The position numbers were made by a program, and so were the translations under genes. The notes beneath the pieces were generated by a model. That model saw nothing but the letters and a program-made list of their open reading frames with translations. It was not told the DNA's origin and searched no databases. 64,000 nt of DNA from Octopus vulgaris (lineage: Eukaryota). Positions 18,765 through 32,299 of the stretch are shown in pieces. Numbering within the stretch: the stretch's first letter is position 1; each line of letters starts with the position of its first letter. The DNA is taken from positions 63,550,001 through 63,614,000 of the forward strand of contig OX597825.1 in assembly GCA_951406725.2 (NCBI GenBank), read 5' to 3'.

Positions 18765-19258
<494 letters not shown>

Positions 19259-20363: not shown

Positions 20364-20700
20364 AAGCAAAATAGCTAGTTAGAAAAATCTCAATAGGAGA
20401 TGAAGTTGTAACCATACTATATCAATATAGCGGGGGTTAAAACAGTAGAAACGTCGAACAGCCATATTGATGTTGCGATAAATATTACTTCTTAGTACTT
20501 TTATCTTTTATTAAGATTTTTCTAACTAGTTACTTTGCTTATATTTATAAACATATCTGTTTACAAGTAAATGTAGGGATAAGCAAGTGACACACACGTC
20601 AATGTATAAAGTATATTAAGTATATGGAATACAAAAATAATGTATATATGTTTACATACGGAAAAGTCGGTCTTACACAGAATAGAAAAGATATTGTGTA
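20364..20700. repeat. Fold-back repeat (family FA, 20364-20540) followed by a fragment of family FB
   Basis: Inverted arms aagcaaaatagctagttagaaaaatctcaata / tattaagatttttctaactagttactttgctt; homologous to 26221-26375; 20550-20700 homologous to 26752-26870 and to the reverse complement of 27200-27350. Confidence 0.75.
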
Positions 20701-21005: not shown

Positions 21006-21189
21006 GAAGGTAAAGCGAAAGAATGAGAAAGTAGTTGAGGTGGTGGGGCGCTATTGTATTGTAATCCTTATGGATTAATGACATTGTATTTGCATTTTTA
21101 ATCGCTGACGCAGATAGCCAGAGCCTTGGGTTGGAGAATTTTGATGGTGTAAGTAACTGGTAAGAGTAATACTTCTTCTGAGGATAATG

Positions 21190-21442
21190 GCGATGATTTG
21201 AATGGTGATGACGGTGGTGATTATTTGGTTTGTAATGATGACAGTGTTGATCATGACGAGGGGTTTAGCAGTGAGGATTATGATGACAGTAACTGTTATA
21301 ATGACGAGGATCATAATAACGAACGCAATAATGATGATGATGATGATGAGGAGGAGGAGGAGGAGGAGGACGGAGAGGATAATGATGATATTGATTATGA
21401 TGATAATGATAATGATGATGATGATGATGAAGATGGTGATGG

Positions 21443-21500
<58 letters not shown>

Positions 21501-21660
21501 GATGCTGCTGCTGATGATGATGAGGATGATGAGGATAATGATGAGGATGATGAGGATGATGAGGATGAGGATAAGGATGAGGATGAAGAGGAGGAGGGAA
21601 AGGAGAAGCTTGAGTCTAACGATGATGATCTCTATGAAGATATTAACGAATTAAGATTCT
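21190..21660. repeat. Degenerate (GAT)n/(GAG)n trinucleotide array
   Basis: Direct inspection; gives a poly-D/E ORF. Confidence 0.9.
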
Positions 21661-21954
21661 AGATTCATCGATGATTATATTAATATACTGGAGATAATAT
21701 AATGAGGATAAAGATAAAGATACAGATAAAGATGAGGAGGAAGAGAAGAGAAGAAGGATGAAGAAGCGATATATCAGAGGTGGTGATGATTAACATAATG
21801 ATGATCAAGAAAATTATCCAAATGTAGAAGATTATAGCGTATAAGTGAATTAGGAGGAAGAAGATAAGGAAGCCGGTATAGGAAATGGAGATGAGGGTAA
21901 AATATTAGGTCGACTACGATGACTAGATTGACGATAATAACGCTGCTACCACTG

Positions 21955-21966
21955 AGGTGGTGGTGG

Positions 21967-22014
<48 letters not shown>

Positions 22015-22111
22015 CGATGATGATGATGAAGATGATGATGATGATGATTATTATTATGTTGATGATGATGATTTTGAAGATGATGATTATGATGATGAAG
22101 ATGTTGATGAA

Positions 22112-22144
<33 letters not shown>

Positions 22145-22219
22145 GATGATGATGATGATGGTGATGATGACAATGATGAAGATGATGATGATTATGATGA
22201 TGATGAAGATGATGATGAA

Positions 22220-22262
<43 letters not shown>

Positions 22263-22540
22263 GTGATGATGACAATAATGAAGATAATGATGATGGTGAT
22301 GATGACAATGATGAAGATGATGATGACGATGACGATGACGATGATGATGATGATGATGATTATGATGATGATGATGATGAAGATGATGATGATGATGATG
22401 ACGATGATGATGACGATGATGACGACGATGATGATGACGATGATGATGAAGATATGTTTATGATGTTGATAGGGGTGGTGATGATGATGATAATGATAAT
22501 GATGATGACGATGACGATAATGTCGATGATGATGATGCAG
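21955..22540. repeat. Long (GAT)n microsatellite with interruptions (~580 bp)
   Basis: Direct inspection. Confidence 0.95.
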
Positions 22541-22927
22541 CACTCACGCAAAATAGCCCGAGCACATACAGCAATTCCATTTAGCGAACAATAAAACTGC
22601 ATTGCAACGGTCTTTGATGAGTAATAAATGCATAACACAGGAAGAATAGGTTATAATTCCAGAGAAACTGAGCAATTAGTGATTAACTTCGTGGCTTAGA
22701 ATGTGGAAGATAATCTGCTATTATATTGCAGGTGGTAACATTGATTGGTGCCTGAAATCTGGTCTGGCGTTGTGATAGTTTTAATGAGGAGTGATTTTTG
22801 TGGAAGAATTAAGGAAACTAGAAACAAATCATGTGATATATATATATAAATATACATACATACACACACACACATATATACATACATATATATGTATATA
22901 TATATATATGTATGTCTGTGTGTGTCA

Positions 22928-23060
22928 CACGGTTCCGAGTTTAGTCCCACTGCGTGGCACCTTGGACTATAGCCTCGAACTGACCAAAGCCTTGTGAGTG
23001 GATTTGGTAGACGGAAACTGTAAGAAGCCTGTCGTATATATATATATATATATATATATA
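22928..23060 (+). mobile_element. Partial SINE family C
   Basis: ggttccgagtttagtcccactgcgtggcaccttgg...ccaaagccttgtgagtggatttggtagacggaaactg matches 38391-38797. Confidence 0.8.
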
Positions 23061-23087
23061 TGGGTGTGTGTGATTGTGTATAGAAGA

Positions 23088-23852
23088 ATATATTAATAAA
23101 AAGAATTCCAACCTTGTCTGATTTTCACGTTTTATTTACAATCTTATAATGATATATTATAAGATAATATATTATAATTGAATAAAATAAAATGAAATAG
23201 TAGAATGTTAAATATTCATTCTGATTGAACTAGTACTTTCATGCATTGAATTCTGCAATCTTCGGGTTCATGTAGTAGTGTTGACAGTCATGCTTCACAA
23301 TTTTTGACTGTAGCAAGATGAGTGATTCTGTGCTATAAATACAGCTGGGTAGGCTCCAGAGTGCTAGGTTTTGCAAACTGTATTCTGACCAATCAGTGTG
23401 TAGTATCACTCAATTACTTAAGCTGATTGGTTGGTTGAGCTGATTGGTTTAGGCATCACGCTTTGTTGGACAGGTCAAGAGTCCTGTATCTTGACCCTGG
23501 CCGAAGCAGCAATTGTTGGGTTATTTTTAGAAATGTTGTAAATATCCTTTGTCAGAGATTTTTATATTTTTATATTTCAATTGTCATCATCATCATTGTC
23601 AGCACCTTAATTATTGTTGCTAGTGGTGATGGTGGTGGCAATAGAACTTTTAAACCCTAAATAAGATAATTTTCCTGCTATCTTCGTCTTGATCACCTTT
23701 AGTATTGTTGTTGTTGTTAGTGGTCATGGTCGTAGCAGTGGAAGTAATACCTCTAAGTATTATTATTATTGCTTATTTAGCTTGGGTTCGAATTTATCAA
23801 TAAAATTCTTTTCTCTGATTTTCCTCTCGATTTCACTTGGGCTGTGTAATTT
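23088..23852 (-). repeat. Left inverted pseudo-LTR (reverse complement of 25429-26193)
   Basis: Positions pair as p + p' = 49281; identical 65-aa ORFs at 23463..23660(+) and 25621..25818(-); no mismatch seen. Confidence 0.95.
23226..23270 (-). ncRNA. Minimal type-I hammerhead ribozyme (antisense copy in left pLTR)
   Basis: Exact reverse complement of 26011-26055. Confidence 0.7.
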
Positions 23853-25515
23853 TGAACCAAAACCCAGCAACTTCTACGGCTTACCAAAAATACACAAATC
23901 AAAAAACATTCAACAGGCAGTAAAAGAACAAGAAAGTGAGTACATAAAATTATTACATCCAAAAGACCTAAAACTTAGACCTATTATAGCTGGTCCAGCA
24001 TGCCCTACACACCGTCTAAGCAATGTTATTGACATTGTTTTGAAACCACTATGTACTTACATACCAAGTTTCATCAGGGATGACATCGACTTCCTGTCCC
24101 ATCTTCCCAAAACAACAGAAACAAAATCAGTTTTACTAAGTTTTGATGTGGTAAGCCTCTACACCAATATTCCACACGATTTAGGAATAAAGGCGATTAA
24201 ATACTGGTTAGAAAAACATAGAGAAGTGATTCCCAGCAGATTCACAGTGCCATTTATATTAGACACAGTCAAACTTATTCTAGAAAATAACACATTCTTC
24301 TTCAATGGAAAGAATTACATCCAAATTAGAGGCACGGCGATGGGAACGAGGTTTGCTCCCGTTTACGCCAACTCTGTAATGGGATACTTAGAAGAACAAC
24401 TCTACCAAGAGGTGGAGGTAAACTATGGCACTGGATTTAGAAAGTATATTGAAAAGGCATGGAAGAGATACCTAGACGACTGTTTCATAATCTGGACAGA
24501 ATCTCTAAATACTCTGGAAGAGTTCAATATCCTCCTGAACAACCTACACCCATCTCTCAAATTTACAAAGGAGATGAGTAGTACCAAATTACCATTCCTG
24601 GATATAATGGTAATTAAAAAAGACACCACCATCACCACAGATATATACTATAAACACACAGACACACATCAATACCTAAATTTTAAGTCGTGCCATCCAC
24701 CACATACAAAACGTAACATCCCATACTGCCTAGCCAGAAGAATTTGTACTATTGTAGAAGATGCAAATATCAGGAACAAACGCCTAATAGAACTAAGAGA
24801 ATTTTTGCTCAAACAAAAATACCCATCTCTACTTATAGAAAATGGCATACAGCGGGCTATAAAAATACCTATACAACAACTTAGGACAACCCAAGGAAGA
24901 GGAAAACAAGAACAAGTCATACCATTCATAGTGACACACAACCCATGTCACCAGAATATCTTCAACATTGCCAAAGCAAACCTACCAATCATTGCCCAAA
25001 GTAATGAATTAAAAGACATAATCAAGGATCGAGCTATGGTGCTTAGTAAAAGACAGCCTAAAAACTTGAAAACATTACTAACAAAGGCAAAATTTGACCT
25101 CAGCAACAAAGACCAAACATTCACGGTATCTAAATGCAATGATAGCCGATGTGGCACATGCCAATTCATACATACCGGTCAATATATAAACACAAAAACC
25201 GGGAAAATATTCACAAACGCGAATATGAACTGCAAAAGCAGAAATTTAATTTACTGCATCAAATGCCCAAATTGTGAAGAAATATATGTAGGTCAGACGG
25301 GAAACGCACTATTAGAACGCTCACGTGTACACCGGCAACAGATTAGAGACCCAGAGGTCCGTCAGATACCTTTGAGTAACCACCTAGCAACATGTGGTCG
25401 GAAAATATATATAATATTTCCATTCTACAAATTACACAGCCCAAGTGAAATCGAGAGGAAAATCAGAGAAAAGAATTTTATTGATAAATTCGAACCCAAG
25501 CTAAATAAGCAATAA
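23851..25515 (+). CDS. PLE polyprotein fragment: reverse transcriptase, Cys-rich linker and GIY-YIG endonuclease (N-terminus lost)
   Basis: Within ORF 23689..25515: FYGLPKIHK, LRPIIAG, SFDVVSLYTNIP, GTAMGTRFAP, RYLDDCF, LPFLDI, YYKHT, linker CNDSRCGTC, NLIYCIKCPNCEEIYVGQT...R..H...HL...E; no stops. The first ~54 codons are antisense pLTR read-through from a TTG; the first in-frame ATG is in GTAMG. Confidence 0.93.
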   Translation, partial: FEPKPSNFYGLPKIHKSKNIQQAVKEQESEYIKLLHPKDLKLRPIIAGPACPTHRLSNVIDIVLKPLCTYIPSFIRDDIDFLSHLPKTTETKSVLLSFDVVSLYTNIPHDLGIKAIKYWLEKHREVIPSRFTVPFILDTVKLILENNTFFFNGKNYIQIRGTAMGTRFAPVYANSVMGYLEEQLYQEVEVNYGTGFRKYIEKAWKRYLDDCFIIWTESLNTLEEFNILLNNLHPSLKFTKEMSSTKLPFLDIMVIKKDTTITTDIYYKHTDTHQYLNFKSCHPPHTKRNIPYCLARRICTIVEDANIRNKRLIELREFLLKQKYPSLLIENGIQRAIKIPIQQLRTTQGRGKQEQVIPFIVTHNPCHQNIFNIAKANLPIIAQSNELKDIIKDRAMVLSKRQPKNLKTLLTKAKFDLSNKDQTFTVSKCNDSRCGTCQFIHTGQYINTKTGKIFTNANMNCKSRNLIYCIKCPNCEEIYVGQTGNALLERSRVHRQQIRDPEVRQIPLSNHLATCGRKIYIIFPFYKLHSPSEIERKIREKNFIDKFEPKLNKQ

Positions 25516-25833
25516 TAATAATACTTAGAGGTATTACTTCCACTGCTACGACCATGACCACTAACAACAACAACAATACTAAAGGTGATCAAGACGAAGA
25601 TAGCAGGAAAATTATCTTATTTAGGGTTTAAAAGTTCTATTGCCACCACCATCACCACTAGCAACAATAATTAAGGTGCTGACAATGATGATGATGACAA
25701 TTGAAATATAAAAATATAAAAATCTCTGACAAAGGATATTTACAACATTTCTAAAAATAACCCAACAATTGCTGCTTCGGCCAGGGTCAAGATACAGGAC
25801 TCTTGACCTGTCCAACAAAGCGTGATGCCTAAA

Positions 25834-25947
25834 CCAATCAGCTCAACCAACCAATCAGCTTAAGTAATTGAGTGATACTACACACTGATTGGTCAGAATA
25901 CAGTTTGCAAAACCTAGCACTCTGGAGCCTACCCAGCTGTATTTATA
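25834..25947 (+). promoter_or_regulatory. Putative pLTR promoter: three CCAAT boxes and a TATA-like element
   Basis: CCAAT at 25834 and 25851, ATTGG at 25888, TATTTATA at 25940-25947 (TATAAATA on the other strand), about 65 nt upstream of the hammerhead; mirrored at 23334-23447. Confidence 0.5.
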
Positions 25948-26010
25948 GCACAGAATCACTCATCTTGCTACAGTCAAAAATTGTGAAGCATGACTGTCAA
26001 CACTACTACA

Positions 26011-26055
26011 TGAACCCGAAGATTGCAGAATTCAATGCATGAAAGTACTAGTTCA
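26011..26055 (+). ncRNA. Minimal type-I hammerhead ribozyme in PLE pLTR
   Basis: TGAAC-CCGAAGA-T.TGCA(GAATTCAA)TGCA.T-GAAA-GTAC-TA-GTTCA: stem I TGAAC/GTTCA, core with U4C, stem II, GAAA, palindromic GTAC, predicted cleavage after 26050. PLE pLTRs are known to carry minimal HHRs. Confidence 0.72.
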
Positions 26056-26187
26056 ATCAGAATGAATATTTAACATTCTACTATTTCATTTTATTTTATT
26101 CAATTATAATATATTATCTTATAATATATCATTATAAGATTGTAAATAAAACGTGAAAATCAGACAAGGTTGGAATTCTTTTTATTA

Positions 26188-26220
<33 letters not shown>

Positions 26221-26375
26221 AAGTAATATTTATCGCCACATCAATATGGCTGGGGTTAAAACAGTAGTAACCTCGAACAGCCATAGTGATGTGGCGATAA
26301 ACATTACTTCTTAGTATAGTTAGTACTTTCATCTCTTATTGAGATTTGTCTAACTAGTTACTTTACTTATATTTA
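26221..26375. repeat. Fold-back repeat family FA, second copy
   Basis: aagtaatatttatcgccacatcaatatggctg / cagccatagtgatgtggcgataaacattactt hairpin; loop gggttaaaacagtag shared with ~20430-20460. Confidence 0.8.
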
Positions 26376-26751
26376 TATATATGTTATGTATGTGTATGTG
26401 TATGTATCATTGTATCTACGAGTTCGTATGTATTAACAAACTTTCAAATGTTCAAGTGTGTTTTACCGTAATGAAACTATATGAAATGTGATCCCGAGCC
26501 AAACATTTAATATAAATAAAGATAAATACTACGTATCGTCTTCTATGGTATTTTTCTCGTTGAAAAAAAGTACTACCTACTTATCTACCTGTCCTATTCT
26601 TCCCCCTCTCTCGCTATATGTCTACCAACTGCTCTTTCTGTTTATTTATATATAAATATTATATAGTACATAGGTAAGAATCAGATGTCCTCCGTGTAGA
26701 ATACACTTAATAGTGCTTAAGTGATTTAAACTTGAGCAGGTATATACGAAT

Positions 26752-27350
26752 ATGTAGGGATAAGCAAGTTAAAGTGATCAAAATTGAAAATATATTAAAT
26801 TCATGAAATACAAAAATCTGTATTCGTATATATACGAAAAGGTCCGATTTACACAGAATAGGAAGGATATCGAGAATTAAAGGGATTGCAGAAAAGTATT
26901 ACAAATCCAACAGCTGTTTCCGAGGGTTTGATGGTCCAAAATAATGTTTATAGATTTATTTCCTCGTCGGATGACACCAGCCTCCGTCTTCAAGGAAGCG
27001 ATCTTACATTTGAGGTGTTGAAAGAAACTTTGAACTTGTTTGAAATTCTTTCTCTCAGCATCTCAAATGTAAGGGCCTTGAAGACGGAGAACCTACTCAC
27101 CCGACGATGGAATCAGTCTGTGAGCATTAATTTGGACCACCGAGCTCCCAGAAACAGCCGTTGGATTTGTAATACTTTTCTTCAACCCACTTATTTCTGG
27201 ATATCTTTTCTGTTCTGTGTAAGACAGACTAACCGCATATAAACATATATACATTTTTGTTTGTATTTCATCTATTTAATATACTTTATATATTGACCTG
27301 TGTAACTTGCTTATCCCTACATTTTCTTGTAAACAGATGTGTTTATAAAT
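26752..27350. mobile_element. Diverged fold-back element FB (arms ~26752-27015 / 27061-27322) with hammerhead-like motifs; probable old PLE pLTR pair
   Basis: atgtagggataagcaagtt...gaaaagtattacaaatccaacagctgtttc...ctccgtcttcaagg mirrored by ccttgaagacggag...gaaacagccgttggatttgtaatacttttc...aacttgcttatccctacat. Confidence 0.65.
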
Positions 27351-28047: not shown

Positions 28048-28447
28048 GGCGCAGGAGTGGCTGTGTGTTAAGTAGCTTGCTTACCAACCTCATGGTTCCG
28101 GGTTCAATCCCACAGCGTGGCAACTTGGGCAAGTGTCTTCTACTGTAGCCTCGGGCCGACCATTTTCCTTGTGAGCGGATCTGACAGACGGAAACTGAAA
28201 AAAGCCCGTCGTATATATGTATATATATATATGTATGTGTGTGTGTTCGTGTGTCTGTGTTTGTCTCTCAACATCGCATGACAGCCGTGGCTGGCGTGTT
28301 GCCGTCCCAGTAACGTAGCGGTTCGGCAAAACAGGCCGATAGAATAAGTACTAGGCTTACAAAGAATAAGTCCTGAGGTCAAATTGCTCGACGAAAGGAG
28401 GTGCTCCAAATGACTGAAACAAGTAAAAGAGTAAAAGAGTAAAAGAA
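28048..28447 (+). mobile_element. tRNA-derived SINE family C, full length (internal TA/TG microsatellite, LINE-like tail)
   Basis: Head ggcgcaggagtggctgtgtg...ggttcaatccc (B-box), CORE-like cttgggcaagtgtcttct, tail ggtgctcca...tgactgaaacaagtaaaaga(gtaaaaga)n. Confidence 0.88.
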
Positions 28448-32014: not shown

Positions 32015-32135
32015 GTTCCCAAACACATAGTTCTGATCATAGTGTCATGGCGTAGCACAGGAAACAACACTCTCGGGTTGGCCAAAGTTTTGTGAGTGAA
32101 TTTTGTAGACAAAAACTGAAAAACACCGTCGTATA
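32015..32135 (+). mobile_element. Degenerate partial SINE family C
   Basis: ctcgggttggccaaagttttgtgagtgaattttgtagacaaaaactgaaaaacaccgtcgtatata. Confidence 0.6.
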
Positions 32136-32299
32136 TATATGTATATATATATATATATAGATATATATATATATATATTTATATATACATGTAAGTGTAT
32201 GTGCGTGTGTGTGCGCGTGTATGTGTATGTGGTGTGTGTGAGGTTGAGTAAAATGTAAGCAACGTTTTGAAAAAATGAAATTAATCACAGTATATTTGG

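What the first reader, a model, noticed from the sequence alone, without database searches (positions are those of the whole stretch)
26011..26055. Variant-core minimal hammerhead ribozyme in the pLTR, present in both orientations
Seen: stem I TGAAC/GTTCA, core CCGAAGA (U4C relative to CUGANGA), stem II TGCA/TGCA with a U.U apposition at 10.1-11.1, GAAA, palindromic GTAC, then UA. The identical motif lies on the minus strand at 23226-23270. Known: PLE-associated minimal type-I HHRs have almost no stem III and are proposed to cleave as dimers through the palindromic loop. Inference: sense transcripts are cut after 26050 and antisense transcripts at the mirror site. The non-canonical core would be missed by strict descriptor searches.
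Basis: partly seen in the sequence, partly recalled or inferred. Interest (0 to 1): 0.75.

Follow-up and report, generated by a model that had tools for sequence, protein, structure and literature searches.

The report
Weakened-core hammerhead in a booming retroelement
This is a hammerhead ribozyme motif at the end of a Penelope-like jumping gene whose newest wave of about 1,200 near-identical copies changed one core letter; many copies were written from uncut RNA, so the ribozyme likely cuts only rarely and is likely not needed for the element to spread.

Summary
The motif is real at 26011-26055 and identical at 23226-23270 on the minus strand. It is a minimal type-I hammerhead in the pseudo-LTR of a young 4271-bp Neptune-like Penelope element. 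The mirror copy is simply the inverted arm of one insertion. U4C is recent: the genome holds 1187 CCGA-core copies, 585 older CUGA-core copies and 6 G5A decay controls. A sister family keeps CUGA with compensatory stem changes. The ribozyme lies about 40 nt after a likely start site where 523 pattern matches begin. Only 4 of 19 nearby non-foldback 5' junctions begin at the cut site, one fused bluntly to 28S rRNA. So most templates were uncut at this site. This agrees with in vitro work on an anole PLE (PMC11167929). U4C is known from a viroid (cited in PMC3088659). Routine cleavage of both strands at this locus is unlikely: each arm offers one monomer. The scan noted other PLE hammerheads, including core-decayed ones, elsewhere in this genome, but no look-alike of this sequence. 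Cleavage is untested.

The parts
26011..26055 (+). Minimal type-I hammerhead: stem I 26011-15/26051-55; core C3 C4 G5 A6 A7 G8 A9 at 26016-22 (U4C at 26017); U10.1 26023 facing U11.1 26040; stem II 26024-27/26036-39; G12 A13 A14 A15.1 at 26041-44; palindrome AGUACU 26044-49; A17 26050; predicted cut 26050/26051
   Evidence: sequence, descriptor scan, pair counts across families, dimer fold
23226..23270 (-). Identical hammerhead in the inverted arm; predicted cut between 23231 and 23230
   Evidence: 45 of 45 identical
23848..26193 (+). Sense arm: 5'-truncated PLE (3' part of ORF2, 3' UTR, pLTR), ending without the tail
   Evidence: blastn to the intact tandem unit in L031, 99.83% over 2346 nt
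23036..23852 (-). Inverted arm: end of ORF2, 3' UTR, pLTR and the roughly 46-nt tail
   Evidence: 99.6% over 817 nt; inverted repeat I1
23848..23852 (.). Inversion junction; the two arms overlap by 5 nt
   Evidence: alignment ends; sequence
23848..25515 (+). N-terminally truncated ORF2: reverse transcriptase, C-x4-C-x2-C linker, GIY-YIG endonuclease (open frame from 23665; the part before 23848 is antisense arm)
   Evidence: ORF list; Pfam RVT_1 E 2.3e-6 (just under the curated cut-off) and GIY-YIG E 3.4e-5; full 775-aa frame in L031
25834..25947 (+). Likely Pol II promoter: CCAAT 25834 and 25851, ATTGG 25888, TATA-like TATTTATA 25940-47
   Evidence: read from the sequence; function inferred
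25970..25972 (+). Likely transcription start site (mirror position about 23311 on the minus strand)
   Evidence: 523 pattern matches with a 5' junction in 25968-25980; many loci align from 25969-25976; 4 of the first 100 listed non-foldback rows have an untemplated G, as expected from a cap (read by eye)
26189..26213 (.). (TA)n target, right side; left (TA)n about 23035-23060

Best explanation
This is the minimal hammerhead motif in the pseudo-LTR of a young Neptune-like Penelope retroelement whose newest subfamily changed core U4 to C; it likely cuts only rarely, likely as a dimer or with the element's protein, and cutting is likely not needed for the element to spread. Steps. (1) Shown: intact 4271-bp units with two overlapping ORFs lie in head-to-tail tandems, and the window holds one truncated two-armed insertion in (TA)n, which is why the motif is on both strands. 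(2) Inferred: the pLTR promoter starts a capped RNA at about 25970, so the ribozyme sits at nt 42-86 of the leader, about 210 nt before ORF1, and a second copy closes the transcript one unit later. (3) Predicted: two copies pair through AGUACU into a double hammerhead. (4) Shown by genomic 5' ends: hundreds of cDNAs read through the intact ribozyme to the start site, so those templates were uncut there. (5) Inferred from weak evidence: a small share of RNA is cut at 26050/26051 and can be copied or joined to other RNA. (6) Inferred: U4C, which lowers but does not abolish cleavage in a viroid, was tolerated and rode along with the successful master copy.
For: Counts in G000 (exact patterns, both strands): CCGA core 1187; CUGA core 585; G5A, the opposite-strand CpG-decay product, 6; U4A or U4G 5. 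CUGA copies are therefore not mainly decayed CCGA. Median pairwise divergence over 115 nt is 0.009 among 17 CCGA loci and 0.098 among 32 CUGA loci; CCGA rows nest inside CUGA rows, though most forks are unstarred. The best 40 of 913 candidates were 100% identical over 181 nt. A sister family, about 38% divergent there, keeps CUGAUGA, the U.U, GAAA and GUACUA, with G-C to A-U in stem I (16 vs 17 of 37 rows) and A-U to G-C in stem II; 90% of cells pair, against 21-38% when partners are slid. In public contigs CCGA dominates 4 of 4 runs of organism A, CUGA dominates 2 of 2 runs of organism B (one study), and organism C is mixed. Junctions: 523 matches at the start-site window against 35 and 29 at windows around the cut site. 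Of 19 non-foldback junctions in 26042-26057, 4 begin at 26051 (P about 0.03; 0.12 if only the 3 blunt ones count). L120 joins 189 nt of sense LSU rRNA to 26051 with no microhomology. PMC11167929 (parts 1-2 of 4 read): the anole PLE hammerhead cuts only with protein, catalytic mutants do not affect insertion, and unprocessed RNA is the main substrate. PMC3088659 (section 8 and passages): natural U4C lowers activity in vitro yet supports viroid infectivity, and U10.1.U11.1 occurs naturally.
Against: No cleavage assay and no raw RNA reads were available; the runs are contigs guessed to be RNA, which cannot show ends. The covariation is essentially two events between two families, both can arise by CpG-type transitions, and the core columns were fixed by my search patterns. 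The excess of junctions at the cut site is weak: 3 junctions fall at 26054. Cut-site junctions do not differ significantly from other junctions in subfamily marker (3 of 4 vs 7 of 15 old type, P 0.58). Junction counts see only RNA that became a template: efficiently cut RNA that is degraded, or re-ligated into circles, would leave no scar, and seamless arrays of more than two units fit circles as well as read-through. Junctions were classified by eye.
Confidence: 0.6

Rival explanations
1. The ribozyme is an essential, efficient processing switch in vivo. Dimer or protein-assisted cleavage of both copies releases unit-length RNA that is ligated into a circle, and rolling-circle copying makes the seamless tandem arrays. 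U4C is functionally silent in this context.
For: Seamless arrays of more than two units: L031 covers 2.5 units plus pLTR at 100% identity between units, L032 2.1 units. The unit closes on itself in contigs of X1 and spans one 4291-nt contig in X4. The motif is kept across families that are about 38% divergent there. RtcB circularises hammerhead-cut retrozyme RNA (PMC7229834 passages).
Against: 523 start-site junction matches show that intact leaders are common templates. Cyclic contigs and arrays are equally explained by read-through of tandem loci or by DNA. In the anole PLE, catalytic mutants still insert.
Confidence: 0.15
2. U4C together with U.U at 10.1-11.1 killed catalysis in the young subfamily, and the motif is a dead relic there or is kept for another job such as a structure or protein-binding site in the leader.
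For: Two non-canonical features stack in a class whose canonical members already cut poorly (PMC4209133 parts 1-2 of 4). Of the 4 non-foldback cut-site junctions, 3 carry the older marker, including the rRNA chimera.
Against: U4C stays active in a viroid (secondary citation). L136 has the youngest marker (99.3% identical) and starts bluntly at 26051. The marker skew is not significant.
Confidence: 0.15
3. The ribozyme is a self-limiting brake: cutting removes the capped 81-nt leader and silences the mRNA. U4C loosened the brake and caused the recent burst.
For: The cut site lies between the likely cap site and ORF1. The C4 subfamily is the largest and youngest. Organism B carries a nearly identical element with U4: 5 substitutions and 6 gap letters in 764 nt.
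Against: One lineage, one event, with other linked changes, so hitch-hiking cannot be excluded. CUGA-core copies also reach the start site often (15 of 32 loci align from 25969-25977; sample chosen for an intact motif), so the canonical ribozyme was not a tight brake either. A search for a second young CCGA family found only scattered singletons.
Confidence: 0.1

Closest known systems
Minimal type-I hammerheads of metazoan PLEs (Cervera and de la Pena 2014, PMC4209133; parts 1-2 of 4 read, supplement file 2 searched by terms, file 1 not searchable)
   Same: In the pLTR, short stem I (5 bp), almost no stem III with a palindromic loop, predicted dimer, and pairs of motifs on opposite strands from truncated insertions, which that paper already describes.
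   Different: Core is CCGAAGA, not CUGANGA. Stem II opens with U.U rather than the conserved G10.1-C11.1. That paper's named core variant is U3-A8. 'CCGA' occurs twice in supplement file 2, both outside a core; figures held as pictures were not seen.
PAc Poseidon element of the anole (Frangieh et al. 2024, PMC11167929; parts 1-2 of 4 read)
   Same: Tandem organisation, AT-rich targets, two element ends that differ by a tail, and an uncut RNA as the main template.
   Different: PAc has one ORF that starts inside the ribozyme. This element has ORF1 and ORF2 overlapping in the -1 frame, a C-x4-C-x2-C linker, the ribozyme about 210 nt before ORF1, and a variant core.
Neptune/Nematis-type EN+ PLEs (Craig et al. 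2021, PMC8557442; introduction and passages read)
   Same: C-terminal GIY-YIG with the CX2-5CxxC linker, (TA)n bias, partial tandems, inverted truncated copy, tail at one end only; the figure 1 legend mentions an ORF1 separated by a frameshift.
   Different: No RT tree against reference clades was built, so Neptune versus Nematis is not settled.
Natural U4C viroid hammerhead (Ambros and Flores 1998; not held, seen only as cited in PMC3088659)
   Same: Same core change; reported to lower activity in vitro but to remain sufficient in vivo.
   Different: That viroid ribozyme is an extended monomer with tertiary contacts (recalled). Here the change sits on a minimal, dimer-type scaffold and is fixed in over a thousand genomic copies.
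Small PLE-associated hammerhead variants that cleave as dimers (Lunse, Weinberg and Breaker; not held, seen only as cited in PMC6765202)
   Same: Short palindromic stem III and a dimer model.
   Different: I could not see whether their large variant set already includes U4C.

Membership tests
Minimal type-I hammerhead of PLEs | Located in the pLTR of a PLE | tested here: met
Minimal type-I hammerhead of PLEs | Stems I and II form and are conserved with compensatory changes | tested here: met
   90% of cells paired, G-C/A-U swap in stem I and A-U/G-C in stem II; few independent events; pair probabilities 0.4-0.9 in leader context
Minimal type-I hammerhead of PLEs | Core C3-U4-G5-A6-N7-G8-A9 | tested here: not met
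   C4 in this copy and 1187 exact matches; met in 585 older copies and the sister family
Minimal type-I hammerhead of PLEs | G12-A13-A14, A15.1-U16.1 and an NUH cleavage triplet | tested here: met
   GAAA, A.U, triplet CUA at 26048-50
Minimal type-I hammerhead of PLEs | G10.1-C11.1 closing pair of stem II | tested here: not met
   U.U; the 5' U is invariant in 38 of 38 rows and the 3' U at least 90%; a natural precedent is stated in PMC3088659
Minimal type-I hammerhead of PLEs | Palindromic residual stem III that allows a double hammerhead | tested here: met
   AGUACU; the dimer MFE is the double-hammerhead fold; computed only
Minimal type-I hammerhead of PLEs | Site-specific self-cleavage 3' of H17 | not testable with these tools
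   Indirect only: 4 of 19 junctions at 26051 and one blunt rRNA chimera
Rfam hammerhead families | Match to a covariance model | tested here: not met
   no hammerhead family among 76 matches at E<=10
Neptune-type EN+ PLE | RT followed by C-terminal GIY-YIG | tested here: met
Neptune-type EN+ PLE | CX2-5CxxC linker upstream of GIY-YIG | tested here: met
   C-x4-C-x2-C read in the ORF2 translation; shared with Nematis
Neptune-type EN+ PLE | RT phylogeny places it with Neptune | not tested
   no reference PLE RT set was fetched

The most novel reading that the evidence does not exclude
This genome records a natural ribozyme-tuning experiment. A single U4C change in the leader hammerhead loosened a self-decapping brake and launched a burst of about 1,200 copies. 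Rare insertions that start at the scissile bond, including a seamless 28S rRNA-ribozyme product chimera, are fossil evidence that PLE hammerheads cut and are ligated in the germline.
Probability: 0.12. Interest if true: 0.7.

Novelty: new variant of a known kind. Interest (0 to 1): 0.36.

Why it matters
What PLE hammerheads do is an open question: Craig et al. call their function unclear, and Frangieh et al. found cleavage dispensable in vitro. This family offers a matched pair: the same 45-nt motif with U4 or C4 in elements 1-10% apart, with dated copy numbers. Its thousands of insertion ends show in vivo that uncut leaders are common templates. That makes the question directly testable with two short RNAs. 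It also shows that strict CUGANGA descriptors and Rfam would miss the most active PLE copies in such a genome. The class, the mirror arrangement and the U4C change each have precedent.

Tried and rejected
Rfam scan found no hammerhead model. 'Both orientations' as a separate antisense device: rejected, since it is the inverted arm of one insertion. CUGA copies as CpG-decayed CCGA: rejected, since the matching G5A decay is 6 against 1187 and CUGA travels with other older markers; 3 of the first 100 listed CUGA rows carry the young loop and may be such decay. Strong pile-up of 5' ends at the cut site: not found, at most about threefold over neighbours. Dropped before that count: 5 foldbacks explained by the GTTCA/TGAAY hairpin, L121 (ambiguous) and all rows that were internal substitutions or deletions; 64 matches, 61 distinct loci, all examined. 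RNA end mapping: no RNA holder is on record and only contigs were served, so no evidence on ends or levels. No GT-AG intron joint was listed in the 8 of 23 runs laid, which is no proof of absence. A second young CCGAUGA family: my pattern gave 129 scattered matches against 54 control and no repeated family among the 100 listed; the pattern may not fit that element. Literature: searches 'hammerhead+Penelope' (45 papers), 'hammerhead+U4C' (1), 'hammerhead+CCGA+uridine turn' (1, irrelevant on reading passages), 'Penelope+hammerhead+octopus' (5) and (listing only) showed no U4C PLE hammerhead. Lunse et al. and Ambros and Flores were not held, and the Lunse variant set may already contain U4C. Supplements of the bioRxiv retrozyme preprint were not seen (passages only).

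Full report
Observation. A relaxed descriptor gives these two hits only, against 1 hit in 200 simulated windows. Stems I and II are the monomer's MFE fold, though no more stable than shuffles. Rfam shows no hammerhead family at E<=10.

Context. Both copies lie in a 774-nt inverted repeat around a 616-aa open frame with RT and GIY-YIG domains. The best 40 of 913 genomic candidates were 100% identical over 181 nt, several spaced 4271 bp apart. L031 holds seamless 4271-bp tandem units with a 454-aa and a 775-aa frame overlapping in -1, with a run of T at the overlap. The window copy is a sense arm 23848-26193 plus an inverted arm 23036-23852 that carries the tail. The arms meet in a 5-nt overlap and sit in (TA)n. 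Craig et al. describe this layout for PLEs, and the C-x4-C-x2-C linker points to Neptune or Nematis. The second orientation is therefore a by-product of insertion.

Age of U4C. Exact patterns give 1187 CCGA-core and 585 CUGA-core copies. CCGA contains a CpG, so CUGA could be decay, but the opposite-strand decay product occurs only 6 times and U4A or U4G 5 times. Among 55 family-A loci, the 17 CCGA copies differ by a median 0.9%, the 32 CUGA copies by 9.8%, and CCGA rows nest within CUGA rows on a weakly supported tree. A sister family (329 matches against 61 control for the looser pattern), three of whose loci carry ORF2-like DNA at 75-79% identity, has CUGAUGA in nearly all listed rows. In public contigs, CCGA carries most of the depth in 4 of 4 runs of organism A, CUGA nearly all in 2 of 2 runs of organism B, and organism C has both (kind of run guessed or unknown). 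U4C is thus a recent, subfamily-specific change.

Structure. On 38 sequences (37 distinct), 90% of cells pair, against 21-38% for slid controls. Stem I swaps G-C and A-U between families and stem II swaps A-U and G-C. These are few events, they can arise by CpG-type transitions, and the core columns were fixed by the patterns; the stems and the U.U were not. Two copies fold best as a double hammerhead with an intermolecular AGUACU helix, -17.0 against -10.6 kcal/mol.

Is the RNA cut? CCAAT boxes and a TATA-like box precede 25970. A pattern that demands foreign sequence just upstream finds 523 matches with 5' junctions in 25968-25980; head-to-head foldbacks count on both strands, and 4 of the first 100 rows show an untemplated G as from a cap (read by eye). 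These copies contain the whole ribozyme, so their templates were uncut at the 5' site. Patterns of the same design around the cut site give 35 and 29 matches. All 61 distinct loci were read. Nineteen are non-foldback 5' junctions across 26042-26057, and 4 begin at 26051 (P about 0.03, or 0.12 for the 3 blunt ones; 3 fall at 26054). Five foldbacks at the site are explained by a local hairpin and were set aside. One junction stands out: L120 has 189 nt of sense LSU rRNA joined to 26051 with no shared base. Ligation or a template jump at a cut end would give this, but it is one case, and it carries the older marker. Contigs in X1, X4 and X16 bridge the cut site with the CCGA sequence; contigs cannot show ends.

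Mechanism. Most likely the motif is a weak ribozyme that needs a dimer or the element's protein, placed in the leader between cap and ORF1; most insertion uses uncut RNA, and U4C was tolerated. This matches the anole PLE, where the ribozyme cut only with protein, mutants still inserted, and no RNA-seq reads ended at the site. It also matches the low activity of minimal PLE hammerheads and the viroid U4C precedent as cited by Perreault et al.. At this locus each arm yields one ribozyme per transcript and read-through RNA would form a long duplex, so routine cutting here is unlikely (inference). Rivals are an efficient cut-and-circularise cycle that leaves no scar (seamless arrays), a dead relic, and a brake loosened by U4C.

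Novelty. The class is known, the mirror arrangement is known, and U4C is known from a viroid. In the searches named under Tried and rejected I found no report of U4C fixed in an expanding PLE subfamily, but the largest published variant set was not available to me. Earlier notes of this scan describe other hammerhead-bearing PLE families in this genome, one spreading after core changes; I did not test them beyond. Verdict: a real, new variant of a known kind, with moderate value as a matched test system.

Noticed in passing
L120:1318-1506 (G000:C1:173742918-173743106): A 189-nt sense fragment of LSU rRNA fused without microhomology to the element exactly at the predicted hammerhead cut site, inserted in (TA)n.
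   Followed up: yes
L031 minus strand, about 3940-3930 (unit nt about 1505-1513): ORF1 and ORF2 overlap in the -1 frame around a T TTT TTT run, a candidate ribosomal frameshift site; no strong downstream structure in a simple fold.
   Followed up: partly
window 25970-25980 equivalent, many G000 loci: Head-to-head pLTR pairs joined at the start site as a near-perfect palindrome with one central mismatch, about 40 of the first 100 rows; suggests two cDNAs annealing at their 3' ends.
   Followed up: no
window 25990-26065: Three short upstream ORFs (7, 10 and 8 codons) chained over the ribozyme, the first and second overlapping by ATGA and the second and third likewise; may be chance.
   Followed up: no
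window 22990-23069, 28167-28246, 32087-32166: A three-copy repeat ending in (TA)n; the PLE inserted into the (TA)n tail of the first copy (D9). Not identified.
   Followed up: no
window 18920-19163 and 26740-27334: Long inverted repeats (108 nt at 98%; nested 133 and 75 nt at about 80%), MITE-like; 20421-20694 resembles 26240-26870.
   Followed up: no
window 21150-22600: Long GAT/GAG trinucleotide tracts that give poly-Asp open frames; most likely microsatellite.
   Followed up: no
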